Counted from the stretch's first letter, positions 20,971 through 41,526 are shown. The stretch: 64,000 bases of DNA from an uncultured bacterium (GCA_903882905.1 CAIRYW010000004.1:49117-113116); one strand, 5' to 3'. Translations and numbers: made by a program. The notes: generated by a model from the sequence alone, not told the origin.

Positions 20971-21241
20971 GTTTTATTATAATTATTTAATATAAAGTAT
21001 TATAACAAACCCAAATAAATATAAAAACTGTTAGCGCTTCACAAACTTTCTTCTTATTTCAATATTATTTTTACTAGTCACTAACAACTAATCACTATTT
21101 ACTATTTTCCTCTTCTTGATTGAGACACATCAGCAATAGAGAAATTTCTACTTTTTCTTAAGGAGTTTTGCTTCTTAAGATTTTTTCCTGCGTTTTTAAG
21201 ATCAAATGATTTTTGTGATTTTTTGGACATGTGTGAGAAAT

Positions 21242-22342: not shown

Positions 22343-22816
22343 GATATCTATATTTTATAGGTAGATTATGACTTTTTCTTATTCTACTGATGGCTACTAA
22401 TAAATTTCCTTAATCTACATTGTACACAATTCAGTATACTATGCAAGCTATTAGTCTACCAGGTGAATGCTAATTCCTTGTAAATTTAAAAATTTGCATT
22501 GTGCATTTTTTTCACATTGCTTTTTAATTTGAACTAGTTCCATTTTGGAAACAGTTGCTTTTTGCAAATTATGTCCAACTATCCGGAAATTCCAGGTAAT
22601 TGCTCTAAGAATAGTCCTCAACAAATACAATTTTTATAAAAGTCTTCTTTTATTAGCGGCCTCGGGTTTTTTGATTTACTACTGATCCTGCCATAATTCG
22701 TAGGCCTCGTCAGCGTCTAAACTGTGTTCATCAGCAAATTCTTGGAGTTCGTTTGCTTCGTCAAAACTTAGGTCGTTGTCTTTTGCAATTATGTATACGT
22801 CTTCGGACATAATATT

Positions 22817-25129
22817 TTATTCTAATCTTGTAATTACTTCTTGAACAATACCCTGAACAACATCGCCTTCATCTGGAACTATCGGTTTGTGATTTTTATT
22901 TGTACTTTTTGGTAATAATATTCTGAGACCGTCTTTTTTATCATAATATTTAATTGTTACATTTTCACCACCAAGTAAAGCGACAACCCTGTCGCCAGTT
23001 TCTCCTTTTTCTGCATAGCGACATAAAACAAGATCCTCGTCGTTTATTCCAGCTTCGTTCATAGAATCACCACTAGCACGCAAAACAAAATATTTTGTTC
23101 CCGGCTTAATTTTACTTTTATCAACCATTATCATTTCCTCTATATTGTTTTCTCCCAATAGAGGTTCTCCGCACGGAGCAGAACCAACTAGAGGAATACT
23201 TACCATTTCCATTGCATAAGGTGATATAACTTTTTCTTTTTTAATTGTCTCAGATTTAAGAACTTTATTTGTAATCCTTTCTTTAAAATATTTCTCAGTT
23301 TCCTTATCAACAAAATATACATAGCATCCTTTCATTCCGCGTGTCATTAGTGTTCTGTATGTATTTTTTATTATCTCAGAAGCTTTTTTGTTTGCTTCCT
23401 CAGAGTTTTCTTTGAGTTCTTTTTTGTATCCTTTTAGTGAGGCGTCAGTCCTGGCTCGTTTATCAGCGCTTGTCACAATTTTTCCATTTCGCACTACAAA
23501 ATCACTTCCAACAATAACTCCAATGTAATCAACCTCAAGCCCTTGGCAAGTGTGAATGCAACCAATCTCGTTTACTGATTTTGGTGAGATAATCCAAATA
23601 TTCCCATCACTAGCAAGATTCCATTTCATGCCAAAATTATATTCTGAAATGATAACGTCATTTAAATTTTTATCTTTTCTGCTCACCCAGTTCCAACAAT
23701 AACCTGCAACAAGTCGTGCTTTATTGTTTATTTTATTTTTATTAAATATTAAATCTCTCAAGTCATTAGGAGATTCAATAATTTTGAAATCATAATCTAT
23801 GCCGTCTAAAGTTGTATTAGCTGTATCCTCAATACCTAAAACATTATCTAACCACGATAAATATCCGTCAGAACCGTTGCAACGAAACTGTGACTCTAAC
23901 TTAAGATTTTGAATTTTTGCGCCAGTTTTGTTTGCCCACTTTTCAATTTCTTCTTTTTTTCCAATATCATGCCATGTCACTTTTTGATCTTCATCAATAA
24001 AAAATATCGAGCATTTTGCTGAATCAATAATTTCTTTAATTTGATTTTCGCCCAAATTCTTAAACATTCCTGATTTCTCATTGAGTCTATGTGCTTCATC
24101 TATAATAAGAGCATCAAAAATATTTTTTTCTTCTCCAACAAAAGAACCAGAACCAGTAAAAAAGTTTGTTATTTGTGACTTTTTGAATGAACCAGTAAGT
24201 TTAGCCTCAAATACACCACGCGGTGCAGCATTTTTTGTAACGTATTGTGTGTTAAGTCCAAGTTTTGTAATAGCTACTAAAAGATTAATCGCCACCACTG
24301 ATTTACCTGTACCAGGACCACCCTCCACAATTAACACATTTTTATTAATTTTCGAAGATTTTTTTGTAAGTGAAAGTGCTGTTTCGTATGCAATTTTTTG
24401 TTCATCAATCATGACAAATTCCTCGTTACCTTTTAGCATTGAAGAAAGACTATCAGCAAGGTTTTTTGATGGACGAATTTCTCCATTATCAATCCTATAT
24501 AATGTATTTTTTTTCTCTCCATGTTTTACGAATTTTGCAATAAAGTCTTGGAGTTTTTCTTTATCGCCTTTGCAAAATGCAGGTGCCTTTGCTAAATATT
24601 CAGAATAAAAAGGACTCAGAATAATATTACTATCAACATGATTATGTAAATATGCGCATGGTTCTAATCCAATATTTTCTTCATACACAGTTGCATTGAA
24701 ACCATAGAGTAGTGTGGAGTAAGACCATGCTTGATACGAAGGATGAGGTTCTTCGCTTGGTCCACTTTTAAAACGGGTCAGAACGATCCCGTCTTTATCT
24801 GTCTTTTGTATGTCAGTCCATTGCTTTAGTTCTATAATTATAACTTTTTCCTTTCCTTCTAAGTCTTCCCCAGTAACAATAAAATCAATACGGTTCTTCG
24901 CTCTAGGAATTGAGTACTCTATAGACACACCAGAATCATCGGGAATTTTATCCGTTTGCATGACTTTATACATTGCGTCCCCAAGAGAATTTTTCCAAGA
25001 GTTGTACTCACTACTTCCGACCTGAATATCAATATTAAGTTTTTCTTTCACTTTTACTCTTACAATATCCTCAATTCCATTTGAAGCATCTTTTAAAAAT
25101 CCAGTTTTTGTAGACTGGTAAACAATCAT
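22817..25129 (-). CDS. DUF2075-like protein (N-terminal PD-(D/E)xK-type nuclease fold plus P-loop NTPase/helicase-like core) fused to a C-terminal LexA/UmuD-type S24 autopeptidase domain
   Basis: 770 aa. N-terminus RIDFIVTGEDLEG...VIIIELKQW (D...ExK). Walker A GGPGTGKS. DEAH-like IIDEAHRL. Helicase-motif-like TCQGLEVDYIGVIVG. C-terminal SIPLVGSAPCGEP...LRASGDSMNEAGINDEDLVLC...VTIKYY with Ser (GDSM) and Lys (TIKYY) in the catalytic-dyad positions of the S24 fold. Confidence 0.7.
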   Translation of the reverse strand: MIVYQSTKTGFLKDASNGIEDIVRVKVKEKLNIDIQVGSSEYNSWKNSLGDAMYKVMQTDKIPDDSGVSIEYSIPRAKNRIDFIVTGEDLEGKEKVIIIELKQWTDIQKTDKDGIVLTRFKSGPSEEPHPSYQAWSYSTLLYGFNATVYEENIGLEPCAYLHNHVDSNIILSPFYSEYLAKAPAFCKGDKEKLQDFIAKFVKHGEKKNTLYRIDNGEIRPSKNLADSLSSMLKGNEEFVMIDEQKIAYETALSLTKKSSKINKNVLIVEGGPGTGKSVVAINLLVAITKLGLNTQYVTKNAAPRGVFEAKLTGSFKKSQITNFFTGSGSFVGEEKNIFDALIIDEAHRLNEKSGMFKNLGENQIKEIIDSAKCSIFFIDEDQKVTWHDIGKKEEIEKWANKTGAKIQNLKLESQFRCNGSDGYLSWLDNVLGIEDTANTTLDGIDYDFKIIESPNDLRDLIFNKNKINNKARLVAGYCWNWVSRKDKNLNDVIISEYNFGMKWNLASDGNIWIISPKSVNEIGCIHTCQGLEVDYIGVIVGSDFVVRNGKIVTSADKRARTDASLKGYKKELKENSEEANKKASEIIKNTYRTLMTRGMKGCYVYFVDKETEKYFKERITNKVLKSETIKKEKVISPYAMEMVSIPLVGSAPCGEPLLGENNIEEMIMVDKSKIKPGTKYFVLRASGDSMNEAGINDEDLVLCRYAEKGETGDRVVALLGGENVTIKYYDKKDGLRILLPKSTNKNHKPIVPDEGDVVQGIVQEVITRLE

Positions 25130-25473
25130 AGTTCAGTATATTTTGTGTGTTTTCCCTTTGACTTTTTCACTGGGTATTTTTGCTCATTCCTTTTAATCTT
25201 TTTCTCTAACGCCTCGACTATATCAATATTCAAATCTTTACTCATTAACAAAACCCAATATAAGACATCAGCAAGTTCTTCGCCAATATCAGTCTTGTTA
25301 GTTTTAATATATTTCTCAATTTCTTTTGTATTTTTCCACTGAAAGTGCTCTAAAACTTCACTTGCTTCTAGAACAAGTGATAACGCAACGTCTTTAGGAT
25401 TATGGAATTGTTTCCAATCTCGAGCATCACGGAAAGCTAGTATTTTATCCGTAAGTTTTTTAATGTCTGACAT
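25126..25473 (-). CDS. MazG-like nucleoside triphosphate pyrophosphohydrolase
   Basis: Probable start is the MSDIKK internal Met at 25473 (ORF-track start 25578). ILAFRDARDWKQFHNPKDVALSLVLEASEVLEHFQW...EELADVLYWVLLM is the MazG/NTP-PPase EExxE/EELxDxLxY signature. Stop overlaps the start of the DUF2075-S24 gene, so the two are co-operonic. Confidence 0.7.
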   Translation of the reverse strand: MSDIKKLTDKILAFRDARDWKQFHNPKDVALSLVLEASEVLEHFQWKNTKEIEKYIKTNKTDIGEELADVLYWVLLMSKDLNIDIVEALEKKIKRNEQKYPVKKSKGKHTKYTEL

Positions 25474-25575
25474 AAGTAATATAATAAACCTAATCGAACA
25501 AAAACCAAGCGGACGTTCGAAACTTACAGTTTCAGTACACCTTTTAAAAAATATTTTGAGATAAAAAAATACCTT

Positions 25576-25612
25576 CATGAGAAAGACCCAAAGGTCGGTC
25601 TCATGAAGGTCG
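25576..25612 (-). terminator. hairpin terminator downstream of the 92-aa GC-rich ORF
   Basis: cttcatgagaAAGacc-caaa-ggtCGGtctcatgaag: imperfect 16-bp inverted repeat, followed on the minus strand by a T-run. Confidence 0.5.
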
Positions 25613-25615
25613 CTT

Positions 25616-25894
25616 TCATGCTGTTGGAGTCGAGGGCTCGAGAACTTCCGGGGTCAACTTCTCCTTAAGCCGGTTAAAGATGGCCACAGCGTCTTTTTTT
25701 ATATCGTAAACCTGGAGAGGTTCGCCTGTTTGCATCACGAAGTTCACCTGAAGTGTATCCATGATAGGCATCACACGTTCAATCCACTGCTCATCGGTTT
25801 CCTCCCTCAAACTCTTGAGGAGAAGTGGTGTATGACCCATTTTTTTGCCATCCTTTATAAACTGGTCTGCAGCCCAATCGGTAAATGTTTGCAT
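25616..25894 (-). CDS. hypothetical protein in an anomalously GC-rich segment
   Basis: 92-aa ORF. Local GC is far higher than surrounding DNA (25.58-26.03 kb). Adjacent to tRNA-Ala. Likely horizontally acquired. The opposite-strand ORF 25730..26026 is an alternative reading. Confidence 0.35.
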   Translation of the reverse strand: MQTFTDWAADQFIKDGKKMGHTPLLLKSLREETDEQWIERVMPIMDTLQVNFVMQTGEPLQVYDIKKDAVAIFNRLKEKLTPEVLEPSTPTA

Positions 25895-26147
25895 TTATTG
25901 TCACCTCCTTTCAAGGTGCTGTTAATTGTTCAAATATCCGCCGTTCGCAATAATGTCAGAGAAATACTAGTCTGTCAAATTATGTTAACTTATAGACCTA
26001 CGGCAAGGACTCACCTTGACATTTGATTACAAACTAAAGACCTTGCGATTTTAGGAAAATAAGTTAAAATATCTGAACTTAGGTAGTTTTAGTGCAAATT
26101 TTGCTTCAAATTAACCTAATTTGATTTGTCGGGTCTAAATATAATTT

Positions 26148-26220
26148 GGGCCCATAGCTCATCTGGTAGAGCGCCTCATTTGCACTGAGGAGGTGAGCGG
26201 TTCGAGTCCGCTTGGGTCCA
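26148..26220 (+). tRNA. tRNA-Ala (anticodon UGC)
   Basis: GGGCCCAtaGCTCAtcTGGtaGAGCgCCTCAtTTGCAcTGAGGaggtgaGCGGTTCGAgTCCGCtTGGGTCCa. 7-bp acceptor stem with the G3:U70 Ala identity pair. D- and T-arms present. Anticodon loop tTTGCAc. No encoded CCA. Confidence 0.9.
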
Positions 26221-27709
26221 CAATAGTAGACTGAGACGCCGAAATGGCGTCTTTTGTCTTGAAAAGACAACACATTTCAGTGGTTCCAAAAAAATTATTC
26301 TGAAAGACTAAACCTGAGGGGAATTGGAACCATTGCAACTTAACTTTTACTCCGATTTTTGCTTTTCTCCATATTTCACTTGGGTTTTTAAGATATTTTT
26401 CAAGAAAATCTATAGCCTCCTCATAATTTGTTTCTGTGTTAGGCATAGAAGCAAGTGAAGCATTTGCCTCAAATAATTCGTTCTCAATCATAGCAAGTTG
26501 TTGTTTAAGGACATTGTCTGAAATAACTCCATCTAAATTTTTCTTGATAATCCCAGACTGCTTATTCGTGAGTTCACTTATATGTTTCTTTAATCTCTCG
26601 GCGTCTTTTCTTTGTTCAAATGTTGCCTTCACGAGATTTTCCTTTACCAATTCTTTTAGTCTTTTGAGTTTTACATCATCAAAGCAAAATTTATTTACGT
26701 AAGTCATAAAAACTTTTTCAAACTCATCACGGTTATGATTTGAGTTATTGCCACCAAAACGGTAAAAGGGATATTTTTGTTTACGCCCACTAGACCAACT
26801 TCCTGTAAGTTTTTTTCCGTTATCGTTTATAACAAACCTACGAAGAGGAAAATCTGGATGGTCTGTAATATGTTGTGAATTTTTTTTGGCTTTACCCTTA
26901 AGAACACGTTGGACTTGATAAAAAATATCTTCAGGAATGATGGGTTCAAATGTTCCTTTATGTCTTTCTCCAAATTTAACAATCCATCCTGTAAAGACTT
27001 CATTTGTTAATAACTTGTAAAAATATGCTTTGCAAAGTGGTTTACCTTTTCTATTACACAAGCCCCTTTTAATCATCATCCTTCTCACTTCTTCTGTTGG
27101 ATACGTGTTAGAAGCCATAAGAGAAAAAGTTTCTTTTATTATCGGAGCCATTATTTCGTTCGGTGCAATTGTTGACCTGCCACCAACTTTTACATTGTCG
27201 TAACCAACTGGAGCCATCCAAACATAACGACCATCCCGCATTGCGTCTTTCATTCCTCCTGCACATCTCTCTGAACGAATATCATTATCAAATTGTGCAA
27301 TGTTTGACATTGTATTCTCCATAAACCTACCTACAGGCGTATTTTCAAAATGTTCAGATGTAGATTTAATTTCTACTCCGTATCTCTTTAGTAAAAGTCG
27401 GAGTTGACTATAGTCATCTGTGTTTCTTGATAGACGGTCCAATTTATAAATTATAACTGCCTTAACTGCGTTTTTTTTATCTGCACAGTAAGTCAAAAGT
27501 TTCTGAAGCTCTGTGCGGTCCGTTGTCTTCGCACTCTCACCTTGTTCAATATAAATCTGTGTAATTTCGTATTCATTCTTTAAGGCGTAATCCTTACAGA
27601 TTTTTTCTTGTGTGCTTAAACTATTTCCTTCTTCAACCTGCTCCTTGCTTGATACTCGGCAGTAAGCCACCGCCTTCTTTTTTTGACTCGTGTAATTTAT
27701 TTCGTTCAT
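26159..27709 (-). CDS. large serine recombinase (resolvase/invertase catalytic domain plus recombinase and zinc-ribbon domains)
   Basis: 516 aa. N-terminal AVAYCRVSSKEQ catalytic-Ser region. Recombinase-domain and coiled-coil C-terminal features. The 3' end of the ORF reads antisense across the 3' half of tRNA-Ala (tail ...VDPSGLEPLTSSVQMRRSTR is tRNA complement), so the true stop may be earlier and the gene abuts or overlaps the tRNA. Confidence 0.85.
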   Translation of the reverse strand: MNEINYTSQKKKAVAYCRVSSKEQVEEGNSLSTQEKICKDYALKNEYEITQIYIEQGESAKTTDRTELQKLLTYCADKKNAVKAVIIYKLDRLSRNTDDYSQLRLLLKRYGVEIKSTSEHFENTPVGRFMENTMSNIAQFDNDIRSERCAGGMKDAMRDGRYVWMAPVGYDNVKVGGRSTIAPNEIMAPIIKETFSLMASNTYPTEEVRRMMIKRGLCNRKGKPLCKAYFYKLLTNEVFTGWIVKFGERHKGTFEPIIPEDIFYQVQRVLKGKAKKNSQHITDHPDFPLRRFVINDNGKKLTGSWSSGRKQKYPFYRFGGNNSNHNRDEFEKVFMTYVNKFCFDDVKLKRLKELVKENLVKATFEQRKDAERLKKHISELTNKQSGIIKKNLDGVISDNVLKQQLAMIENELFEANASLASMPNTETNYEEAIDFLEKYLKNPSEIWRKAKIGVKVKLQWFQFPSGLVFQNNFFGTTEMCCLFKTKDAISASQSTIVDPSGLEPLTSSVQMRRSTR

Positions 27710-27908
27710 ATTCTTTTTGGTCCAAAAATGCCTCTACTAGAATACTTGCGAAGTAATCTAGAGCAACATCCTCTGGGACATTATTAGAGCTATTAAAACC
27801 AAAAGAGGGACAACGAAGGGACTCTTTGTTGCTACACATCAAGTCTCGTTGCCCCTCTTTGGGTACAAAATTATAAGCCCCTACTTTACTGATGTGTAGC
27901 CTACTCAT
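27633..27908 (-). CDS. questionable small ORF
   Basis: 91-aa ORF overlapping the 5' end of the serine recombinase by about 76 nt. No motif. Confidence 0.2.
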   Translation of the reverse strand: MSRLHISKVGAYNFVPKEGQRDLMCSNKESLRCPSFGFNSSNNVPEDVALDYFASILVEAFLDQKEYERNKLHESKKEGGGLLPSIKQGAG

Positions 27909-27912
27909 AATA

Positions 27913-29031
27913 TCATTTTCCCTTCATTTTTTGAAGGAGATTAGACAACTCTTTTTCACTAAATTGGTAGACAATTTCTCTACTTTTTCCTTCAAAATCT
28001 ATGTTTCTTATGATTTCAATTTGCCTTTCCTCCTCAATATGTCCATAGCCGTAAGAGCCAAAGGTTGTTCCAACATCTTCGTGACCTAAATTTTGGCTGA
28101 TAGCCTTTTTCTGTTCTTCCGTTAGGGGTAGTTTTGATATTGCTTTAATGAGTAAGTGCCTAAAAGTGTGTGGATGATAATATTTAACTCCAGCCTGTAC
28201 AAATCTTTTTTCAAATATTTTTCTAACTGAAGTTGGACTTTTCCAAAAAGTTGGTTCAACTTCCTGTGTGTTGTAGTAACCTAAATTTTCCTTACCACAC
28301 TCAACTTTGGTTTTAGGAAAAATAGGGTCATTCGGACCGAATTTCTTCTGTTCTAATAAATAATCAAACCACTTAATAAAATAGTCTAGCGGTTCTTTGT
28401 ATGAAAAAGGTATTAGAGTGGAGATTATTCTCTTTGAGAATTTCGTTTTTACACCTAATTTTGGGTCTTGGTCTACAGTTAGCTTTTCTCTATCAAAGCA
28501 TTTCATTGGAAGAGATGTGATTGCAGAAATTCTAGCTCCAGTTAAAAAGGTTAGAGAAATTAAAGCTTTATCCCTCATTTCAATTTCAGTATTACCACCG
28601 ATATTTTCAATTACTAGCCTTATTTCATCTAAGGTTGGCGATAATTTGCTTTTTGGTTGAGTTGCAATCTTAATTTCTTGCCTTGATAGATTTAAATAAT
28701 CAATATCTGTTTGATTGATTTTTGACTTGTATCCAGATTGTCTAGATAACCACTCAAAGAAAGTCTTTAAATGTCTTATAATGTCGTAACAATAGGATAT
28801 GCTGATATTTCCTTCAGTGTGAACTTTTTTCTTGCACTTAAGCCAATTTTTGAAATTCTCAGCTTTTATTTTAGTAAAACCCGCTAAGTCACCTTTATTA
28901 GTAAAATCCTCCCAAAGATATACTGCGTCTTCAAAGCATTCAATTGTTGTTTTAGAGAATCCTTTGGAGTTGGCTAAGTAGTCATAGAATTTTCTTTTTA
29001 CCACTTCATTTTTCTGGGTTATTGATGACAT
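27913..29031 (-). CDS. tyrosine-type site-specific recombinase/integrase
   Basis: 372 aa. N-terminal SAM-like domain. C-terminal catalytic HPHTFRHLLI ... LGHEDVGTTFGSYGY (R-H-R-Y constellation with terminal Tyr). Confidence 0.85.
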   Translation of the reverse strand: MSSITQKNEVVKRKFYDYLANSKGFSKTTIECFEDAVYLWEDFTNKGDLAGFTKIKAENFKNWLKCKKKVHTEGNISISYCYDIIRHLKTFFEWLSRQSGYKSKINQTDIDYLNLSRQEIKIATQPKSKLSPTLDEIRLVIENIGGNTEIEMRDKALISLTFLTGARISAITSLPMKCFDREKLTVDQDPKLGVKTKFSKRIISTLIPFSYKEPLDYFIKWFDYLLEQKKFGPNDPIFPKTKVECGKENLGYYNTQEVEPTFWKSPTSVRKIFEKRFVQAGVKYYHPHTFRHLLIKAISKLPLTEEQKKAISQNLGHEDVGTTFGSYGYGHIEEERQIEIIRNIDFEGKSREIVYQFSEKELSNLLQKMKGK

Positions 29032-29093
29032 ATTTTTTTAGTATTTATTATTGGTTTCTAATGGGACATTTAAGAGGTGTATCAAGTAATCAT

Positions 29094-29498
29094 TTAATCC
29101 TTTTGGCATATCTTTAAAAATCTGTTTATTTTTGTTCCACATTGCTCGCATAATCCTATTTTCTTTTGTTGCTCTATTTTATTTTTCCCTATCCTTTTTC
29201 CAGTTTTGACGATATTTTCACTACCGTTCAAGGCCTCAACAACCTTCTTGCATTTGAAGCAGTAAAATTGATTTTTAGCCAAAGGCTTTTTTTTAGCTGA
29301 CCGTTTTTGGTTGATAAATATTTTTAAATCTTCGCCCATAATCAATAGTGGACTGGAATCCTCATCAACTACTTTTAGGTTCTCCTTTTTAATCCATCTG
29401 GAACAAGTTTTTCTGTCAACGTTCAAAAGTGTTGCTATATCCTTGATTGAATAGCTACTCCTAGATTTAATTAAGTGGATGTTGTATTTATTGGCCAT
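29094..29498 (-). CDS. HTH (excisionase/MerR-like) DNA-binding protein with C-terminal CxxC...CxxC zinc ribbon
   Basis: 134 aa. YSIKDIATLLNVDRKTCSRWIKK helix-turn-helix. CFKCKK...CEQCG zinc-ribbon. Confidence 0.5.
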   Translation of the reverse strand: MANKYNIHLIKSRSSYSIKDIATLLNVDRKTCSRWIKKENLKVVDEDSSPLLIMGEDLKIFINQKRSAKKKPLAKNQFYCFKCKKVVEALNGSENIVKTGKRIGKNKIEQQKKIGLCEQCGTKINRFLKICQKD

Positions 29499-29666
29499 TA
29501 AGAAGCCTACTATTTACTTGGCAGGCTCTTGAACGCCGATATGGCACCAGCCAAGTAAGCAATAGGTTTACTCTTTGGCGTTCAAGATTTTGCCAAACAA
29601 AAAAAGGCCTACTATCAGCCTACGCTTTTATAAAAATTCAAATACCTACATTAAAAAAATAGGTAT

Positions 29667-30746: not shown

Positions 30747-30752
30747 ATCTTG

Positions 30753-31676: not shown

Positions 31677-31681
31677 AAGTT

Positions 31682-33316: not shown

Positions 33317-33456
33317 TTTAATTATTTTTAAGCTAAAACTTACAATAAATAATACAGTACAATTAACATTTTGTCAAAGATAATAAGTGGAAAACATACA
33401 TTTAAGTATTTATAAACTAAGTAGTATTATTACTTAGTAATTTCTCTCACCAGTTA

Positions 33457-33560
33457 TTAATTAAATAAATATTTATGTTTAACTTTTTTCACAATCTAAG
33501 TGTCGGAATAATTCCAGTCTTTATTGCTTTTACTGGTATTTTTCATTCAAATAATAACAA
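33457..33560 (+). repeat. conserved 5' module (upstream box plus leader-peptide coding region), copy 1 of 3
   Basis: agttattaattaaataaat upstream box, then atgtttaacttttttcacaatctaagtgtcggaat...gcttttactgg...tttcattc. About 85% nucleotide identity to the copy at 38678..38780. The same upstream box precedes the copy at 34275. Confidence 0.6.
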
Positions 33561-35514: not shown

Positions 35515-37266
35515 CTAGTTAATTTGTTTATCAGCCTCATATTCCCTCAAAATAAAGGTTAAATACTCACATTCTCTAGCAAATTTGTTCCAAAAATCAA
35601 ACCCCAAGTCCACAAATCGAGATTTATTGGTGTCGAATTCGTTAGATAGCTTGTAGGGTAAGGATAATTTTGGTGTTCCATTAACTATTTCTTCATAAGT
35701 AGGTAGTTTGTCGAATACCAACCCATAAAGGGACCTCAATTTAGTAAAATCCTTTTGTTTTATAAGGTATTCTTCTGGGTGTTCCATTATTTTTTTTACG
35801 TAGCCTACAAAAGCGTGAATATCGTTCTCCTTAATTTCTAATTTATTTCTTTCACCTTCAGTACTCAATATCTGCTTTTGTATTTCCTCAATCTTTTCTT
35901 CAAGGTCTTCTCGGATGATTGTATTAGTAGTCCCTGTAAAGGCATCAATCAATCTTTTCTTTTCTGTTTTAAGTTCAATAACAGTAGTTCCTGTTTGACT
36001 AGCAAATTCTCCAAGCTCTTTTTCTTTTTCCCTATATTTGTTTTTAATAGTTGCCTCGAGGCTTCTAAAGTAATTTTCGTCACTATAAGTTATCTTTTTT
36101 ACAAACTCACTTAAATTCTTTTCGAAAGTATCTTTACTTACCCCGTAATATTTGTGATTTCTACAGCAATGGTAAGTTGGATATTTTTTTATCTTACCTT
36201 TAGGGCTACTGCCCAAAAATGGCTTATCGCAATGAGGACACAAAATTACATCTTTAAAATGAAAAAGTGGGTTATTTCTTGTTCGCTTTAATTGGAGAGG
36301 ATTGAAATCCTTTAAAATTTTAATCGAGCCATTTTTTTGTTCATCGATATAAATCTGACCCCTATTGGCATCATTAAACTTTTTAATGCTTACTAAGCCT
36401 TTATATTGAGTTCTGGTGGGCTCAAGAACCCACTTCTCTATGTTTATTCCACAGTAGATAGGTCTTTTTATGATGCTCTGTAATTTTTTAACAGTAAGCT
36501 TTAATCTACCCCTTGAGCCAATTACTTTACTTTTATCTTTTGACCAGTGTTTTCTATCTCTTGAGCGGTAGCCCATTGCATTGAGTTTTCCGACAATTTG
36601 AATATCAGAAAAAGCACCAGAAGCCCTAAGTTCAAACATTTTTGCAAAGTAATGTGCTCTTTCTGGGTCTGGAACCTGAATAACTCTTTTTTTATTTTCT
36701 ACAAATACTTTTTGATTAATATATCCATCATCAGCTTGTCTAACTTTATAACCTTCTCTTACCAAGTTTATTTCAGAACCAATCATTCTAGTTAGAATCA
36801 CATTCACTTCATTTTTCCCTTGCTGAGCCATAACGAGCTCTGATATTTCGCTTGGATAGATTCTGCTCCAATCATATTCCATACCTAAATGTTCGAGGGT
36901 ATTTTTAGAAGGTTGTATTACTCCATTCGCATCAATTAACTCAACTCCATATTTTGCAAGCAACTGTTTTAACGTTTCGTATCCAAGAGTTCCATTTCTT
37001 GTAAAACGGTCAATGGCACGAAAAATCAAGTAATCAATTTTTTTATTTGATTTTTTTATAAATGTGATGATGTCTTCAATTACTGGTCTTTCATTTTTTC
37101 TACCTGAATATTGTTCCTTGAACACATTAAGCACTTTTAAATTTTTTCTCTCGGCAACGCCTAAACAAATTTTTGCTTGGTCTTCAATGCTTTCGCCTTG
37201 CTGAGCCTGTTTTGTTGTACTTACTCGACAGTATACTAGGCAGTTTTTATGAGGTAAGTTTTCCAT
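35515..37266 (-). CDS. large serine recombinase
   Basis: ORF-track start 37320 is a TTG. The ATG at 37266 (MENLPHKNCLVYCRVSTTKQ) is the likely start. Resolvase catalytic domain (YCRVST...DRFTRN), recombinase domain, zinc ribbon (CPHCDKPF...YHCCRNH), C-terminal coiled coil. Confidence 0.85.
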   Translation of the reverse strand: MENLPHKNCLVYCRVSTTKQAQQGESIEDQAKICLGVAERKNLKVLNVFKEQYSGRKNERPVIEDIITFIKKSNKKIDYLIFRAIDRFTRNGTLGYETLKQLLAKYGVELIDANGVIQPSKNTLEHLGMEYDWSRIYPSEISELVMAQQGKNEVNVILTRMIGSEINLVREGYKVRQADDGYINQKVFVENKKRVIQVPDPERAHYFAKMFELRASGAFSDIQIVGKLNAMGYRSRDRKHWSKDKSKVIGSRGRLKLTVKKLQSIIKRPIYCGINIEKWVLEPTRTQYKGLVSIKKFNDANRGQIYIDEQKNGSIKILKDFNPLQLKRTRNNPLFHFKDVILCPHCDKPFLGSSPKGKIKKYPTYHCCRNHKYYGVSKDTFEKNLSEFVKKITYSDENYFRSLEATIKNKYREKEKELGEFASQTGTTVIELKTEKKRLIDAFTGTTNTIIREDLEEKIEEIQKQILSTEGERNKLEIKENDIHAFVGYVKKIMEHPEEYLIKQKDFTKLRSLYGLVFDKLPTYEEIVNGTPKLSLPYKLSNEFDTNKSRFVDLGFDFWNKFARECEYLTFILREYEADKQIN

Positions 37267-37428: not shown

Positions 37429-37677
37429 TCATAGGCTATTTTGGCTCTGTTTTCGGTTGTCCTCAGAGCAGGAAAGAGCAACAAGGTGTTTGAGAATTAC
37501 TCGTTTATCCTGAGGTCTATAATCAGACTTCTCAACCAACTTATTAAACCAGCGGTTTACTGCATCCTTACTAAAATTTTGTCCCTTTATTGCACGGGAA
37601 AAGTTTATGAAGCTACTTATATTGTTATTTTTTTGTTCTAAGCTGTTGAATCTTCGTTGGATACTTCTCATACCCAA
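37429..37677 (-). CDS. questionable small ORF
   Basis: 82 aa with no motif. Sits between the serine recombinase and the paralogous hypothetical gene. Confidence 0.25.
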   Translation of the reverse strand: MGMRSIQRRFNSLEQKNNNISSFINFSRAIKGQNFSKDAVNRWFNKLVEKSDYRPQDKRVILKHLVALSCSEDNRKQSQNSL

Positions 37678-38464: not shown

Positions 38465-38677
38465 CGCATATTCTAGGTGTTATAGTTTAAGTACAACTGA
38501 ATAAAGAAAGTAGCCTAAACTTTGAGATTTTTGTTTCAAGGCACGGTGAAAAGAATCCTGACACGGATAAAAAACCCATCATATGGGGTTACCGTGTCAG
38601 GTCACACTGGGAAACTGGTGTGGATAGCGAAAGCTGTCACCTATGTGGTGGGCTTTTTGCTATTCAATTATTAGGTA

Positions 38678-38780
38678 GCTAATAATAAAAATATGTTCAA
38701 TTTTTTTCACAATCTAAGTATCGGAATTTTCTCTGCGTTTCTAGCTTTTACTGGGGCTTTTCATTCTCAAACACAACCAG
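38678..38780 (+). repeat. conserved 5' module, copy 3 of 3
   Basis: atgttcaatttttttcacaatctaagtatcggaat...agcttttactggggcttttcattc. 32/35 identity with copy 1 across the first 35 coding nucleotides. Confidence 0.6.
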
Positions 38781-39520
38781 TAGTCCAAACGCCCGTAACT
38801 CAAATAGTAGCAACAACTACGGAGCAAACTTCAGTATCTGCTCCAGTACTTAAAACTCCCCAAACTCAAAATTCCACAAAAGAGACACCGACAACTGCCC
38901 CAGCTTCCACTTCAGTACCACCAACAGTGATTTCCAAAAATATCTCAATAAATTATTTGCCTGCTTATCTAGCTTTTCTAAATTCACAAAAAGATTTTTT
39001 TATCAAACAAAGAAGTATCTTAGACCCCCTAATTGCTGATGCACAAAGCAAATCAGATTCATATGATGAGCAGGCAAGCTATTTTAGTGGACTCATAGGT
39101 CAAGGACTTGCTGGACAGATATATCAAGGCGTCGCCAATCAAAGTAAAAGTGCATCTCAAGTATATGTTGCCTTAATTTCATCATTAAAAACGGTTCAGT
39201 CTTTTGATGATGATGCGATAAATATCATCAATGCAGAAGAGAACAAAGACGTTGGATTATTCTTATCATCTGATGAATACACAGCCAAATATAATTCAAT
39301 GGAAACATCTCTCAGTTATCGGTATAACCTAATTGTGAGTGATATAAGTAAGGAGGGAAATGCATATTTTGCTCAAGACAAAAAAATGAGAGATGACGAG
39401 GCACAGTTACTTGGTCAATTACAATCTCTAGCCACAGCTCCTAATCCAGTTAATTTACAACCGCCAACTCCACGAATAACCATTTGTAATTTTTCAGGAA
39501 GTACTATTATCTGTAATTAA
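38693..39520 (+). CDS. secreted protein with conserved FFHNL-type N-terminal leader, hypothetical
   Basis: 275 aa. Leader MFNFFHNLSIGIFSAFLAFTGAFHSQTQPVVQTPVTQIVATTT. C-terminal Cys pair (ICNFSGSTIICN). Confidence 0.5.
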   Translation: MFNFFHNLSIGIFSAFLAFTGAFHSQTQPVVQTPVTQIVATTTEQTSVSAPVLKTPQTQNSTKETPTTAPASTSVPPTVISKNISINYLPAYLAFLNSQKDFFIKQRSILDPLIADAQSKSDSYDEQASYFSGLIGQGLAGQIYQGVANQSKSASQVYVALISSLKTVQSFDDDAINIINAEENKDVGLFLSSDEYTAKYNSMETSLSYRYNLIVSDISKEGNAYFAQDKKMRDDEAQLLGQLQSLATAPNPVNLQPPTPRITICNFSGSTIICN

Positions 39521-39591
39521 ATTCTATGGGACAAGAAACGCTTTTAGCTAATTAGGGATGCTTTATTGCAACCAGTAAGATAGAAAGAAAT

Positions 39592-39921
39592 CTATTTTTT
39601 TATAGTTGTTCCATTGTTTTGTAATTGTTGCGAAAGATTGTCAATTTTAGTATTTATAGATTCGTAAGAAGATGTTTTGGTATTGTTTGATTCTACAACA
39701 AGTGCTTGCATTGCAGTTAATGTAGACACAAATCCTAAAAATAAAACAATAATTACTCCAATTACTATACTCCACATTAAAGTATTAAAAGATTTTATTG
39801 TAGATTTTAAGTCCGAAATTCTTGTATCAAGAGCACTTTCTGTGAGCGGATTAGATACATCAATTTTAGCTTTGCCTGTAGATGTATTATCAGTAATTTT
39901 TTGTTCTATTTCGTTTTTCAT
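39592..39921 (-). CDS. small single-TM membrane protein, hypothetical
   Basis: 109 aa. Central TM WSIVIGVIIVLFLGFVSTLTAM flanked by polar Ser/Thr/Asn-rich regions. Confidence 0.4.
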   Translation of the reverse strand: MKNEIEQKITDNTSTGKAKIDVSNPLTESALDTRISDLKSTIKSFNTLMWSIVIGVIIVLFLGFVSTLTAMQALVVESNNTKTSSYESINTKIDNLSQQLQNNGTTIKK

Positions 39922-40206
39922 TTATAGATTATTTCTCTCTGGAACATCAGTGGCTTTTGCTAAAAATAACCTAATTTCTCCCGTATCAGCATTTAAAAAT
40001 GCTTTTATTACAAGCCCAGACGTCTGAGAAGCTGAAATCATTTGAGCACCAGCTATAGTGACAACAGGGAGCATATTTAGGTGTTGTATTTCAGTCCAAG
40101 TACCTCCTGAAGCATTTAATATTCCTCGTATTTCTTCTAATGAAATTATTCGTGGGGGCATAAATTTATTGTGAAAGTAATTATATATCTTTTTTATCAT
40201 TTTCAA
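39922..40206 (-). CDS. hypothetical protein
   Basis: 94 aa. Start/stop abut the neighbouring genes, giving a three-gene minus-strand operon 40543..39592. Confidence 0.35.
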   Translation of the reverse strand: MKMIKKIYNYFHNKFMPPRIISLEEIRGILNASGGTWTEIQHLNMLPVVTIAGAQMISASQTSGLVIKAFLNADTGEIRLFLAKATDVPERNNL

Positions 40207-40216
40207 AGTACTTATT

Positions 40217-40543
40217 TTATGAAATTATTTCTGATAAAGAAGATGTGTTAGTAGAATCTGGGTCTTTATACTGGGTCAAAATAACTTGAAAAGGCTCAAA
40301 ATCTGTTTCTACATCCATACTTTGTGAGAGTTTTCCGTACGCTCGGTCGGCAAGCCATTCACGAGCTCTCTGGTTGCCTGAGGTAGCTTGCTCTATTGCC
40401 TTATCAACAATTGGCTCGAAAGAAATAATAAGTTTCCGTACAATAAGTTCTCTAGCTTTTTCAGCCTCAATACCAGCAAATCCTTTTTTTCTTCCTGCAT
40501 TTTGTCTGTAACCGCCTCTCATAATTTGATAAGAATCAAACAA
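40217..40543 (-). CDS. hypothetical protein with basic N-terminal HTH-like segment (phage/mobile-element-like)
   Basis: 108 aa. GGYRQNAGRKKGFAGIEAEKARELI resembles the GRPxxG DNA-binding N-termini of terminase-small-subunit/transposase HTH proteins. Weak. Confidence 0.35.
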   Translation of the reverse strand: MFDSYQIMRGGYRQNAGRKKGFAGIEAEKARELIVRKLIISFEPIVDKAIEQATSGNQRAREWLADRAYGKLSQSMDVETDFEPFQVILTQYKDPDSTNTSSLSEIIS

Positions 40544-40796
40544 TCATACATAACTGTTATCTAACTGATGAGCAGTATACTTTCTCCCTGTTCTTTGCCT
40601 GTTTATCAAGGGAATAAGTTGTAGTTCTATAATGTAATGGGTAAGTTGAAACATAACAAAAGATAAACATTTCGTTGCTAAATATATGTGCTTTTTCATA
40701 CTATTACTACCGATTCAAAGCCGTTAAAAACGGCATTCCATTTAATAACCATATTTTCTATAGTGTTCCATTCCAGACCCTCTGAGCCCACAAATA

Positions 40797-40825
40797 CTAA
40801 AAAACACCACATTTGTGGTGTTTTT
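40797..40825. terminator. perfect hairpin with flanking A- and T-runs
   Basis: aaaaaACACCACAttTGTGGTGTttttt. The NYN ORF-track start codon (atgtggtgt) lies inside this hairpin. Confidence 0.6.
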
Positions 40826-41526
40826 TAGTATTTGTGGACGACACAGGTTTTGAAATTAGTATTTGTATTGATACAATTAACGTAAATATATTAGAAGCTA
40901 AGATCGGAAATTTAGTGAACAAGAGTGAGATTAAAGAATTTATCGACTCCTTTGTTGGAGCTCAATCAAGAACAATTATTATTGTTGATTTTGGTAATGT
41001 TGATAAATGGAAAGAAAGTTTAGGATGGAAAATAGGTATTCAGGAACTGGCAAGATTAATTAAAAATTTTTCTATAGGTAATCGAGAACTAAGAAGATTT
41101 TATTACGGTGTAGATTATGGTCCATATGAAAAAAATAAAACTCCAACTATTTGGTCTGCACAAATGATTCATCGTGCAGAAGAAAATGGATTAAAATCAG
41201 TCACTAAAAGAGTTAAATATATTCATAATTCAAACAATTCAATGGGCTATGATAAAAAATGTGATCTTGATGTTGATATGGCTATTGACTTGGTAAAAAT
41301 GAAGGACAGTTATGATAATGTGATTTTATTTTCTGGTGATGGTGATCTTATCTGCGCAACAAATTATCTTAAACAAGAATTCAGTAAAAAGATTTACGTA
41401 TTTAGTGCAAGAGGTCATATTGGGCGTGAAGTAATAGATGCTTCAAAAGAAAAACTTGTGGACTTGATTTTGTACATTGAGGATTTTGAGTACAGGCTCA
41501 ATATGGACAGATTTAGATATAAATAA
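40813..41526 (+). CDS. NYN-domain (LabA/PIN-like) putative ribonuclease
   Basis: RTIIIVDFGNV ... CDLDVDMAIDLVKM ... DNVILFSGDGDLICATNYLKQE are NYN/LabA-like signatures. The 5' end is uncertain because the listed ATG lies within a terminator hairpin. A downstream GTG/TTG start shortly before RTIIIVDFGNV is plausible. Confidence 0.65.
   Translation: MWCFLVFVDDTGFEISICIDTINVNILEAKIGNLVNKSEIKEFIDSFVGAQSRTIIIVDFGNVDKWKESLGWKIGIQELARLIKNFSIGNRELRRFYYGVDYGPYEKNKTPTIWSAQMIHRAEENGLKSVTKRVKYIHNSNNSMGYDKKCDLDVDMAIDLVKMKDSYDNVILFSGDGDLICATNYLKQEFSKKIYVFSARGHIGREVIDASKEKLVDLILYIEDFEYRLNMDRFRYK

What the first reader, a model, noticed from the sequence alone, without database searches (positions are those of the whole stretch)
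25576..29031. tRNA-Ala(UGC) as integration hot-spot: GC-rich foreign segment on one side, serine recombinase overlapping the tRNA 3' half plus a tyrosine integrase on the other
The tRNA (26148-26220, G3:U70) is flanked on the left by a stretch (25.58-26.03 kb) whose GC content is much higher than the genome. That stretch contains a 92-aa ORF and a terminator hairpin. On the right, a 516-aa large serine recombinase has its C-terminal reading frame running antisense through the tRNA 3' half, followed by a tyrosine integrase and an HTH/Zn-ribbon (excisionase-like) gene. The arrangement suggests two independent integration events at the same tRNA, or a composite element. I found no obvious tRNA-3'-end direct repeat downstream, so the far boundary is undefined.
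Basis: seen in the sequence. Interest (0 to 1): 0.5.

Follow-up and report, generated by a model that had tools for sequence, protein, structure and literature searches.

The report
Serine-integrase elements stacked at tRNA-Ala
Two small mobile elements sit one after the other at the very end of a tRNA-Ala gene in a Patescibacteria genome; each was inserted by a large serine integrase whose attachment site lies inside its own gene, so insertion replaces the enzyme's tail with a peptide read off the opposite strand of the tRNA gene.

Summary
In detail: tRNA-Ala(UGC) at 26148-26220, a 516-aa large serine recombinase (LSR1) whose last 20 codons are antisense tRNA, a tyrosine recombinase, an HTH/Zn-ribbon gene, a GC-richer 92-aa ORFan on the left, and no tRNA direct repeat.

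The interpretation needs correcting. The boundaries are set by serine recombinases, not the tyrosine integrase. In about 40 Patescibacteria loci, LSR1 relatives overlap a convergent tRNA (11 anticodon types). In 14 of them the displaced native tail (VDLxxxFWNxFAxECxYLxxILK) lies 3.8-10.3 kb upstream on the same strand, next to a terminator-like hairpin on the host side. Both junctions share a GTGGAC core, which is the last five tRNA bases plus one.

So attP lies inside the LSR 3' coding end, and integration swaps the tail. The element also brings a hairpin, encoded within the LSR ORF, that folds like a terminator for the tRNA.

The window holds a tandem array: E1 (26216-35613, 9.4 kb, carrying the tyrosine recombinase as cargo) and E2 (35608-40791, 5.2 kb, with a second LSR and a LOOT RNA). 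LSR2 now carries E1's tail; its own tail remnant lies at 40696-40791.

The closest precedent is phage Mx8 IntP/IntX, a tyrosine integrase. Mobility is inferred, not observed.

The parts
26148..26220 (+). tRNA-Ala(UGC), intact; the target gene (B arm of attB)
   Evidence: ARAGORN; Rfam tRNA 64.3 bits
26216..26221 (.). attL core GTCCAC (tRNA G69-A73 plus 1 nt), which is GTGGAC in the recombinase sense; junction between the tRNA and E1
   Evidence: The same core is present at attL and attR in 13 of the 14 delimited elements; the 14th, at tRNA-Lys (L018), shares only GTCC
26233..26253 (+). Terminator-like hairpin directly after the tRNA, supplied by the element and encoded inside the LSR1 ORF (codons KDAISAS)
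   Evidence: Terminator scan. The equivalent hairpin folds with z < -1.5 in 31 of 41 occupied loci, median z -4.1
26159..27709 (-). LSR1, large serine recombinase of element E1. Residues 1-498 are native; residues 499-516 are antisense tRNA
   Evidence: Pfam; more than 2400 homologues; tail alignment. An intact homologue folds as a full-length LSR matching the SPbeta, Bxb1, LI and PhiC31 integrases
27633..27908 (-). 91-aa ORF overlapping the LSR1 start; conserved partner of the recombinase (candidate accessory or directionality factor, inferred)
   Evidence: tblastn hits directly upstream of the LSR in 48 of 80 loci and in 12 of 16 delimited elements. No Pfam or PHROG match
27913..29031 (-). 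Tyrosine recombinase, cargo of E1
   Evidence: Phage_integrase 41.7 bits. Co-occurs with the LSR module only in L006 (73% identity) and L032 (60%)
29094..29498 (-). HTH plus Zn-ribbon (DUF5679) protein, cargo of E1
   Evidence: Pfam; found in the same order in L006 and L032
29667..35339 (.). E1 cargo: 359-aa, 307-aa (PG_binding_1), 544-aa, 264-aa and 346-aa ORFs. The last two share a conserved N-terminus with the 275-aa ORF of E2
   Evidence: Pfam and PHROGs; repeat family D1
35515..35613 (-). Displaced native tail of E1 (VDLGFDFWNKFARECEYLTFILREYEADKQIN*), now read in frame as the C-terminus of LSR2. The core GTCCAC at 35608-35613 is the E1/E2 junction
   Evidence: tblastn with native tails; junction sequence. 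The LSR2 family's own tail is a different sequence
35515..37266 (-). LSR2, large serine recombinase of element E2 (583 aa from the ATG; 20% identical to LSR1 but colinear with it up to the VD junction); a chimeric protein
   Evidence: Pfam; BLASTP; P0121 and 398 homologues
37429..37677 (-). 82-aa ORF of E2; this family recurs in other elements
   Evidence: tblastn in 7 loci; cluster present in 4 elements
38512..38638 (+). LOOT RNA (RF03000) inside E2, 54 nt upstream of the 275-aa ORF at 38693-39520
   Evidence: 85.7 bits against a gathering score of 46.4. LOOT lies inside 12 of 14 delimited elements elsewhere
38693..40543 (.). E2 cargo: a 275-aa secreted-type ORF and three small ORFs (109, 94 and 108 aa), with only weak or no family matches (one weak holin-like PHROG hit)
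40696..40791 (-). Displaced native tail of LSR2 (VGSEGLEWNTIENMVIKWNAVFNGFESVVIV*). The core GCCCAC at 40786-40791 is attR, the right end of the array
   Evidence: tblastn with native LSR2-family tails, E down to 8e-11; sequence
40788..40837 (.). Host-side perfect 24-nt-arm palindrome (-35.9 kcal/mol), interpreted as the original terminator of the tRNA. Its right arm is followed by AC, so it reads GTGGAC, the complement of the original core
   Evidence: the repeat finder I6; sequence and fold
25616..25894 (-). 92-aa GC-richer ORFan on the 5' side of the tRNA; not part of the elements
   Evidence: GC 0.466; only one homologue among 5.8 billion proteins

Best explanation
The 14.6 kb between the 3' end of tRNA-Ala (26221) and the host-side hairpin at 40788 is a tandem array of two small integrative elements, E1 (9.4 kb) and E2 (5.2 kb).

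Shown by sequence comparison:
1. Each element was inserted by its own large serine recombinase.
2. In both recombinase families attP lies inside the recombinase gene, in the codons for a linker (...S-x-x-V-D...) between the last folded domain and a C-terminal helix.
3. attB is the extreme 3' end of a tRNA gene. The shared core is GTCCAC, i.e. tRNA G69-A73 plus one base.
4. Two variant cores (L018 and the right end of E2) are consistent with exchange inside the four bases CCAC.

Consequences of recombination:
1. The tRNA stays intact.
2. The hairpin that originally followed the tRNA is moved to the far end of the element, together with the codons for the recombinase's native tail.
3. The recombinase ORF is fused to the antisense strand of the tRNA and acquires a new tail of about 18 aa (PxGLEPxTxSxQMRxSTR) that ends at a stop codon in the D-arm.
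4. The element brings a replacement hairpin followed by a T-run for the tRNA, written into the last codons of the recombinase body. That it acts as a terminator is inferred from sequence and folding.

The window records two such events at one tRNA. As a result LSR2 now reads into E1's tail, and LSR2's own tail remnant lies at the right end of the array.

Inferred, not shown:
- E2 inserted first and E1 then used the tRNA half-site again. The reverse order gives the same product.
- The elements still excise. This is suggested because the displaced tails remain open and conserved.
- The tail swap changes recombinase activity or directionality, by analogy with Mx8.
- The conserved 91-aa ORF is an accessory or directionality factor.
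For: Recombinase families and tails:
- More than 2400 LSR1 homologues exist. At least 75 of the best 120 end in an antisense-tRNA tail; a minority end in a different tail with an FWN motif and an L..IL-type helix.
- In 80 genome loci, every Patescibacteria copy whose 3' end could be read and that carries such a tail (about 40 loci) overlaps a convergent tRNA: Ala-TGC mostly, but also Leu, Arg, Lys, Tyr, Val, Glu and Ala-GGC. One Patescibacteria-labelled locus, L063, instead has a native tail at a contig end. Bacteroidota copies keep the native tail and have no adjacent tRNA.
- In the tail sequences shown for each tRNA type, the junction sits in the same register, V followed three residues later by G-[LIVF]-E-P.

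Delimited elements:
- In 14 loci the displaced native tail was found on the same strand 3.8-10.3 kb upstream. Each is preceded by the core, and in most by a host-side terminator-like hairpin. All 14 remnants are still open for 25-47 aa.
- The prediction was made before L029 was inspected, and it was met there.

The window:
- The only FWN tail is fused to LSR2.
- The LSR2 family has 398 homologues. At least 83 of the best 120 have antisense-tRNA tails, and the family's native tail is LEWNTIE..V.KWN.VF.
- That native tail was then found on the predicted strand at 40797-40699, next to a perfect palindrome.

Other support:
- The hairpin after the tRNA is conserved inside the LSR ORF.
- 47 metagenome loci share the same tRNA 3' half, and none has a full-length LSR1-family gene joined to the tRNA; most show no recombinase at all. 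This includes L123, the closest relative among these loci by ddl (77%) and uvrC (70%), although only 384 nt downstream of its tRNA are available.
- An intact homologue folds as a complete LSR, and the att core codes for a low-confidence linker before a confident terminal helix.
- Independent assemblies reproduce the tRNA/LSR1 junction at 100% identity, and the chimeric LSR2 protein is recorded on 3 contigs.
Against: - No excised circle, no attP-form protein and no orthologous empty site of this same strain was found. All five contigs from other samples that extend past the tRNA are occupied.
- Nothing here shows recombinase activity; the crossover dinucleotide is inferred from only two variant cores.
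- About 26 tRNA-overlapping loci showed no tail remnant within the 10 kb or less of upstream DNA that was available.
- Bacteroidota relatives (44-69% identity) keep native tails in chromosomes, so an intragenic attP is not universal in the family, and their att sites are unknown.
- The half of attB beyond the tRNA is not conserved in sequence, which is unusual for characterised serine integrases.
Confidence: 0.8

Rival explanations
1. A tyrosine-integrase genomic island of the classical tRNA type: the 372-aa tyrosine recombinase with its excisionase-like partner inserted the island, and the serine recombinase is a separate or passenger gene.
For: A tyrosine recombinase (41.7 bits) and an HTH_17-like gene lie 1.7-3.3 kb from the tRNA. 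Tyrosine integrases are the usual users of tRNA sites (PMC7192596, read).
Against: - There is no direct repeat of any part of the tRNA 3' end in the window.
- The tyrosine recombinase is not the gene adjacent to the tRNA.
- It accompanies the LSR in only 2 of 80 loci, whereas the tRNA overlap and the tail remnants follow the LSR everywhere.
- Both element ends are explained exactly by LSR tails.
Confidence: 0.04
2. A single composite element with two serine recombinases that arrived and moves as one 14.6-kb unit, rather than two successive insertions.
For: The two parts are contiguous and share paralogous cargo: N-termini of the ORFs at 33475, 34299 and 38693. No copy with E2 alone or E1 alone was found.
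Against: - LSR2's tail belongs to the LSR1 family and not to its own family. That is the signature of a recombination junction between two elements.
- Each part has its own recombinase and its own displaced tail.
- Each part has a size (9.4 and 5.2 kb) within the 3.8-10.3 kb range of single elements.
- No other tandem array was seen among the 80 loci.
Confidence: 0.12
3. A fixed, non-mobile gene arrangement: a domesticated recombinase that has overlapped tRNA-Ala since a common ancestor, with no integration involved.
For: The overlap with tRNA-Ala(TGC) is very widespread in Patescibacteria, and no excision product was detected.
Against: - Eleven different tRNA types are used.
- The DNA next to the recombinase differs in nearly every locus.
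- Many tRNA-Ala genes with the identical 3' half have no LSR1-family recombinase joined to them.
- Displaced tails sit next to host-side hairpins.
- There is a chimeric junction in the window.
Confidence: 0.02
4. Assembly artefact: the tandem arrangement or the ORF-tRNA fusion is a chimeric join in a metagenome-assembled genome.
For: The source is a metagenome assembly, and contigs from other samples break near the tRNA.
Against: - Nine independent contigs are 99.9-100% identical to the window over the stretches that align, and five of them run across the tRNA/LSR1 junction.
- The exact chimeric LSR2 protein is recorded on 3 contigs.
- The junctions share only 6-11 bp, too little to mislead an assembler.
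- The same architecture recurs in about 40 unrelated assemblies.
Confidence: 0.02

Closest known systems
Myxococcus phage Mx8 IntP/IntX
   Same: attP lies inside the integrase coding sequence. Integration creates a recombinant gene with a new 3' end of int, and the altered integrase remains active with changed properties (review PMC6070905, read). From my own knowledge of Tojo et al. 1996 and Magrini et al. 1999, which I could not read here, the Mx8 target overlaps the 3' end of tRNA-Asp genes.
   Different: Mx8 Int is a tyrosine recombinase of a 49-kb phage. Here the enzymes are large serine recombinases of 4-10 kb elements without phage genes. The arrangement is shared by two recombinase clades that are only 20% identical, each with hundreds to thousands of homologues, and the new tail is antisense tRNA.
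Characterised large serine integrases (PhiC31, Bxb1, A118/LI, SPbeta SprA)
   Same: Same domain set and fold: Resolvase plus Recombinase domains, and full-length structural matches to SPbeta, Bxb1, LI and PhiC31 integrases. Short att sites share only a few bases of identity, and no long direct repeats flank the element.
   Different: Those enzymes have attP outside the int ORF and typically target protein-coding genes. Mageeney et al. 2020 state that use of a t(m)RNA gene by a serine integrase had not been reported, and found only 14 of 297 candidates (PMC7192596). LSR1 also lacks the cysteine ligands that LSR2 retains in the zinc-ribbon region (read from the sequences).
Classical tRNA-gene genomic islands (Islander type, tyrosine integrases)
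   Same: Integration at the 3' side of a tRNA gene with the tRNA kept intact. The integrase gene sits next to the tRNA. Tandem accretion at one tRNA occurs.
   Different: Those islands carry a 3' tRNA fragment of tens of bases and leave it as a direct repeat. Here only 4-6 bases are shared, and the far end is marked by a displaced piece of the recombinase gene instead.
SSV1-type archaeal integrases
   Same: attP lies inside the int gene, so integration alters the gene; tRNA genes are the targets (own knowledge; the topic is reviewed in PMC8371274, which I listed but did not read).
   Different: SSV-type integrases are tyrosine recombinases, and the gene is split into two distant, inactive parts. 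Here only the last roughly 30 codons are exchanged and the ORF stays open.
Integration-dependent immunity of mycobacteriophages
   Same: Integration at an intragenic attP changes the C-terminus of a phage protein and thereby its behaviour (own knowledge of Broussard et al. 2013; not read here).
   Different: There the gene remodelled is the repressor and the integrase is a tyrosine recombinase. No regulatory effect has been shown for the present elements.

Membership tests
Large serine recombinase (serine integrase) | N-terminal resolvase-type catalytic domain with the serine nucleophile motif | tested here: met
   Pfam Resolvase scores 111 bits for LSR1 and 64.5 bits for LSR2. The motif Y-x-R-V-S-x-x-x-Q has S20 invariant across 28 homologues.
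Large serine recombinase (serine integrase) | Recombinase domain followed by a zinc-ribbon-type domain with an inserted coiled coil | tested here: met
   Pfam Recombinase scores 34.8 and 23.1 bits. The AF2 model of intact homologue P0044 has long helices at residues 327-403, and it gives full-length Foldseek matches to SPbeta (9dxd, E 2e-16), Bxb1 (9iu2) and LI (4kis) integrases. LSR1 lacks the Cys ligands; LSR2 has C-x2-C...H-C-C (sequence).
Large serine recombinase (serine integrase) | Recombines short attP and attB sites at a 2-bp crossover, giving attL and attR without long repeats | tested here: inconclusive
   Junction pairs in 14 loci and in the window share only a 4-6 bp core, which is compatible. 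No enzymology was done, and the central dinucleotide is not mapped.
Large serine recombinase (serine integrase) | Excision depends on a separate recombination directionality factor | not testable with these tools
   A conserved 91-aa ORF next to the LSR is a candidate only.
Mx8-type intragenic attP (integration remodels the integrase C-terminus) | attP inside the integrase coding sequence; the integrated form encodes a different C-terminus | tested here: met
   Native and antisense-tRNA tails diverge at the same V-D codons. Displaced tails lie at the far ends of the elements.
Mx8-type intragenic attP (integration remodels the integrase C-terminus) | The integrase is a tyrosine recombinase | tested here: not met
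   Both enzymes are serine recombinases. This works like Mx8 but is not a member of that family.
Mx8-type intragenic attP (integration remodels the integrase C-terminus) | The remodelled integrase has altered activity | not testable with these tools
   Indirect evidence only: the native tail is a confidently predicted helix, and the displaced remnants stay open and conserved.
Tyrosine-integrase tRNA island (Islander type) | Displaced 3' tRNA fragment as a direct repeat at the distal end | tested here: not met
   The last 29 tRNA bases occur only once in the window at up to 3 mismatches. No relevant repeat was found in 18-45 kb.
Tyrosine-integrase tRNA island (Islander type) | Tyrosine integrase gene at the tRNA-proximal end, conserved with the site | tested here: not met
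   The gene next to the tRNA is the LSR. The tyrosine recombinase is present in only 2 of 80 related loci.
Prophage | Capsid, tail, terminase or portal genes | tested here: not met
   No PHROG structural or packaging family was matched, apart from weak endolysin-like hits to a PG-binding domain. There is no match in 50,697 phage records, and the best IMG/VR relative is 33% identical.
Integrative conjugative or mobilizable element | Relaxase, coupling protein or type IV secretion genes | tested here: not met
   None appeared among the Pfam results for the E1 and E2 ORFs that were scanned; the small 82-aa and 94-aa ORFs of E2 were scanned only against PHROGs. No such family is shared among the 16 elements. 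Proteins with no Pfam match remain uncharacterised.
LOOT RNA (Rfam RF03000) | Score at or above the family's gathering threshold over the full model | tested here: met
   85.7 bits against 46.4, covering model positions 1-121.

The most novel reading that the evidence does not exclude
Patescibacteria harbour a large, undescribed class of minimal integrative elements. Each consists of a serine integrase, a small partner ORF, usually a LOOT RNA leader, and variable membrane or secreted cargo. They target the last bases of tRNA genes and use an intragenic attP as a built-in switch. Under this reading the free form makes an integrase with an amphipathic C-terminal helix that is competent for integration. 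The integrated form makes an integrase with an antisense-tRNA tail and different activity or directionality, and the switch reverses on excision. The tRNA T-arm/acceptor half-site would be sufficient for targeting. That would explain both the jumps between tRNA species and the stacking of elements at one tRNA.
Probability: 0.3. Interest if true: 0.8.

Novelty: new variant of a known kind. Interest (0 to 1): 0.62.

Why it matters
- Serine integrases are major genome-engineering tools, yet they have not been known to use tRNA genes. The papers I could search and read contain no described case; Mageeney et al. 2020 call it unreported.
- These families would add a natural set of enzymes aimed at a near-universal, conserved target. 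Their site requirement on the non-tRNA side appears relaxed.
- They would also extend the 'integration rewrites the integrase' principle, known from phage Mx8, to the other recombinase superfamily.
- For Patescibacteria, which have almost no genetic tools and few described mobile elements, they define a common and easily recognised element type with exact boundaries. Composition-based methods miss it, because its GC equals that of the host.
- The work places the orphan LOOT RNA in a defined genetic context: inside these elements, as a leader of membrane-protein genes. That makes its function testable.

Tried and rejected
- GC or skew delimitation: uninformative, because E1 and E2 have host-like GC.
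- Phage origin: no megablast match to 50,697 phage records, no close relative in IMG/VR, and no PHROG hallmark genes.
- Exact look-up of the reconstructed attP-form LSR1, attP-form LSR2 and tRNA-fused LSR2 proteins among 15 billion sequences: none present.
- Population variants via the 92-aa ORF's 11 contigs: every one that reaches the tRNA is occupied and 100% identical. Variation exists only further left, at 25517 and 25544.
- Inversion of the tRNA-plus-element block as the explanation for why ddl and uvrC lie on the opposite side compared with 12 relatives. L029 shows the same arrangement with a clean attR next to ddl, so a native convergent tRNA/ddl order is sufficient. A residual rearrangement relative to L123 is unresolved.
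- The 52-nt conserved stretch at 25497-25548 as a tRNA-derived att remnant: its similarity to the tRNA is not above background.
- TTGTGGACTTG on the + strand inside the 3' end of the NYN ORF as an inverted att site: a single 11-mer with no supporting tail homology; left unexplained.
- LOOT in E1: absent even at E <= 1.
- Literature: no paper describing serine integrases at tRNA genes in Patescibacteria, or an intragenic attP for a serine integrase, turned up in six searches. The original Mx8 papers are not held.

Full report
**The observation**

The window is a low-GC (0.343) bacterial chromosome with Patescibacteria-type content: H+-pyrophosphatase, Ddl, a short UvrC and VanY. Its close protein relatives are annotated as Nomurabacteria, Paceibacterota or Parcubacteria.

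- tRNA. There is one tRNA, tRNA-Ala(TGC), at 26148-26220 on the + strand.
- Serine recombinase. The ORF at 26159-27709 (-) is a 516-aa large serine recombinase, LSR1 (Resolvase 111 bits, Recombinase 34.8 bits). Its last 20 codons and stop are the exact reverse complement of the tRNA from position 12 to one base past the 3' end.
- Terminator-like hairpin. GAGACGCCGAAATGGCGTCTT followed by TTGTCTTG lies directly after the tRNA, and therefore inside the LSR1 ORF.
- Upstream genes. These are a 91-aa ORF, a tyrosine recombinase (41.7 bits) and an HTH/Zn-ribbon protein.
- Left of the tRNA. A 92-aa ORF has GC 0.466, and the stretch 25576-26030 has GC 0.442. That is about 2.9 SD above same-size windows, though three other places in the window are as high.
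- No second copy of the tRNA 3' end exists.

**The lead**

A protein search with LSR1 returned more than 2400 homologues at 55-77% identity over the full length. Most ended in VDPxGLEPxTxSxQMRxSTR, which is antisense tRNA. A minority diverged right after an invariant valine into a different tail with the pattern FWN...L..IL.

This suggested that the attachment site lies inside the 3' end of the gene, so that integration exchanges the tail. The model makes a strict prediction: the native tail must lie at the far end of each integrated element, on the recombinase's strand, next to host DNA.

**Test in other genomes**

A genome scan gave 80 loci.

- Every Patescibacteria locus whose LSR 3' end could be read and that carries an antisense-tRNA tail (about 40 loci) has the LSR 3' end overlapping a convergent tRNA. 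One Patescibacteria-labelled locus, L063, instead has a native tail at the end of its contig.
- The tRNA is mostly Ala-TGC, but Leu-TAG, Leu-GAG, Arg-GCG, Arg-CCT, Lys-TTT, Tyr-GTA, Val-GAC, Glu-TTC, Glu-CTC and Ala-GGC also occur.
- In the tail sequences shown for each tRNA type, the junction sits in the same register relative to the T-arm: V-x-x-x-G-[LIVF]-E-P.
- Roughly 35 Bacteroidota loci (44-69% identity) keep long native tails and have no adjacent tRNA.

In L029 the predicted remnant, MVDSSVAFWNHFALECNQLADILK, was found just after ddl and a small gene, 8.2 kb upstream of the junction.

A systematic search then found such remnants in 14 loci.

- All 14 lie on the recombinase strand, 3.8-10.3 kb from the tRNA junction.
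- All 14 are still open for 25-47 aa.
- Each is preceded by the core, and in most by a host-side hairpin that looks like a terminator.
- attL and attR share GTGGAC in the recombinase sense, which is tRNA G69-A73 plus one base. The tRNA-Lys case (L018) shares only GTCC.

**The window itself**

The only FWN-type tail in the window is the C-terminus of a second serine recombinase, LSR2 (35515-37266, -). The junction there reads TTT|GTGGAC|TTGGGGTTTGATTTTTGGAAC.

- LSR2 is only 20% identical to LSR1, but the two proteins are colinear up to the same V-D.
- The LSR2 family has 398 homologues, also from Patescibacteria. It likewise ends mostly in antisense tRNA (at least 83 of the best 120).
- The native tail of that family is different...LEWNTIENMVIKWNSVF....
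- LSR2 in the window is therefore a chimera, with its own body and an LSR1-family tail. That is what a junction between two stacked elements should look like.

The model then predicted that LSR2's own tail lies further right, on the - strand. It is there, at 40797-40699: VFVGSEGLEWNTIENMVIKWNAVFNGFESVVIV (E down to 8e-11).

That remnant abuts a perfect palindrome with 24-nt arms (40788-40837, -35.9 kcal/mol). I read the palindrome as the tRNA's original terminator.

The core at this end is GCCCAC, not GTCCAC, while the right arm of the palindrome still reads GTGGAC. Together with L018, this is consistent with strand exchange inside the four bases CCAC, i.e. C71, C72, A73 and the next base.

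Resulting map:

| Feature | Coordinates |
|---|---|
| tRNA-Ala | 26148-26220 |
| E1 (core to core, 9392 bp) | 26216-35613 |
| E2 (core to core, 5178 bp) | 35608-40791 |
| Host-side hairpin, then NYN gene, ddl, uvrC | from 40788 |

Either order of insertion gives this product. I favour E2 first and then E1 re-using the tRNA half-site. The reason is that the tRNA side is the only conserved half of attB across loci; the other half is merely A-rich. This ordering is inference.

**What the elements are**

- Among 16 delimited elements, the shared genes are the recombinase and the 91-aa ORF (12 of 16). An 82-aa ORF family is present in four. The rest is variable cargo, often small membrane or secreted proteins.
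- No phage, conjugation or replication family was recognised. There is no match in phage records and no close IMG/VR relative.
- The tyrosine recombinase, the HTH/Zn-ribbon gene and the 359-aa ORF form a block that also sits next to the LSR module in L006. The first two are also there in L032. It is long-standing cargo of one sub-lineage, not the agent of integration.
- The hairpin after the tRNA is conserved within the LSR ORF: z < -1.5 in 31 of 41 occupied loci, median z -4.1. It has a T-run only in the tRNA sense, so it most plausibly terminates the tRNA transcript. This is inference.
- An AlphaFold model of an intact homologue (mean pLDDT 81) is a complete serine integrase by Foldseek, matching SPbeta, Bxb1, LI and PhiC31. 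The att core codes for a low-confidence linker (residues 473-482) in front of a confident terminal helix (483-507).

**Evidence on mobility**

- 47 metagenome loci carry the identical 23-nt tRNA 3' end. None has a full-length LSR1-family gene joined to the tRNA, and most show no recombinase at all.
- One of these is L123, the closest relative among these loci by ddl (77%) and uvrC (70%). Its tRNA is followed by its own hairpin and no recombinase within the 384 nt available.
- L121 keeps only a 33-aa LSR 3' remnant, which looks like a scar.
- For this particular strain I found no empty site, no circle junction and no attP-form protein.

Current mobility is therefore inferred. The grounds are the diversity of tRNA targets, the variable cargo and the intact displaced tails.

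**Comparison with what is known**

- Closest precedent: phage Mx8. Its attP lies within int, and integration creates a new 3' end of int with altered integrase properties (PMC6070905). That enzyme is a tyrosine recombinase.
- Mageeney et al. 2020 state that use of a t(m)RNA gene by a serine integrase had not been reported. They saw only 14 of 297 candidates and called for experimental proof (PMC7192596).
- Six literature searches found nothing on serine integrases at tRNA genes in Patescibacteria, or on an intragenic attP in a serine integrase.

I therefore rate this as a new variant of a known kind: known enzyme class and known principle, but a new combination, a new target class and a very large unexplored family.

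**Limits**

- Everything rests on comparative sequence analysis.
- The functional meaning of the tail swap, the role of the 91-aa ORF and the exact crossover are untested.
- The att sites of the Bacteroidota relatives are unknown.
- The rearrangement of the tRNA block relative to L123 is unresolved.

Noticed in passing
window 38512-38638 (+); L004 6792-6910, L005 7519-7640, L007 5988-6109, L008 8009-8134, L011 8373-8492, L013 8626-8748, L017 7084-7205, L029 7073-7185, L031 7224-7352, L032 6819-6940, L037 9516-9630, L067 9391-9514: The orphan LOOT RNA (RF03000) lies inside 12 of 14 delimited serine-integrase elements and inside E2 of the window. It never occurs in the flanking host DNA, and it is absent from 7 loci whose recombinase keeps the native tail. 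In the seven copies examined (the window and six loci), an ORF follows on the same strand 6-183 nt downstream (40-67 nt in five of them), in most cases for a small membrane or secreted protein. LOOT therefore looks like a 5' leader rather than a free-standing sRNA.
   Followed up: partly
window 20996-25578: The 5' side of the tRNA carries a small defence-type cluster: a full-length SoFic match (374 bits, 21242-22342), a Schlafen-type helicase fused to an S24 peptidase with partial AbiO/Nhi similarity (22817-25129), and a MazG-like pyrophosphatase (25126-25473). None of these occurs near the tRNA in the related loci.
   Followed up: partly
window 25497-25548 (-); L142, L138; L123 3913-3965: A 52-nt non-coding stretch is about 96% identical to sequence lying downstream of the unoccupied tRNA-Ala in relative L123. 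In the window it lies on the other side of the tRNA and on the other strand. Two contigs from other samples (L142, L138) diverge from the window exactly here, at 25517 and 25544; L142 leads into a gene with no match in the window. This is a polymorphic breakpoint of unknown mechanism.
   Followed up: partly
L123 3794-3880: At this unoccupied site the tRNA 3' end and its hairpin form a long palindrome. They are followed by an inverted partial copy of the tRNA 3' end (GTGGACCCAAAGCG...GCGGACTCGAAGACC) interrupted by a 25-nt hairpin. It may be a scar of an earlier recombinase event.
   Followed up: no
window 41452-41462 (+): TTGTGGACTTG is identical to 11 bases of the E1/E2 junction but in the opposite orientation. 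It lies inside the 3' end of the NYN-domain ORF (40813-41526).
   Followed up: no
window 33473-33552, 34297-34376, 38691-38770: Three cargo ORFs (264, 346 and 275 aa), two in E1 and one in E2, share a conserved 80-nt start region that encodes a hydrophobic N-terminus (MFNFFHNL...). They form a paralogous secreted or membrane protein family spread over both elements.
   Followed up: no
L013 9288-9394 (-): A SAM riboswitch (61.4 bits) lies inside a 4.6-kb serine-integrase element, between its LOOT RNA and the recombinase module.
   Followed up: no
L010, L024, L027, L028, L073 and about 30 further loci: Recombinases 44-69% identical to LSR1 occur in Bacteroidota chromosomes, including complete genomes and isolates such as Niastella vici and Lacibacter luteus. 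The 91-aa partner ORF is detected in about half of these loci. They have native tails and no adjacent tRNA. The family is shared across two phyla, with different integration behaviour.
   Followed up: partly
L014 3504-5056 and 10001-11331: In one complete 682-kb Patescibacteria chromosome, two different recombinases of this kind each overlap their own tRNA (Ala-GGC and Ala-TGC), 6 kb apart.
   Followed up: no
L121 (tRNA at 377-451 on the - strand; remnant in the adjacent ~100 nt): Downstream of a tRNA-Ala, only the last 33 codons of an LSR1-type gene survive, including the hairpin. This looks like a deletion scar of an element.
   Followed up: no
window 8582-8712 (-): An AdoCbl riboswitch match just above the gathering score (51.7 against 50 bits), far from the finding.
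   Followed up: no
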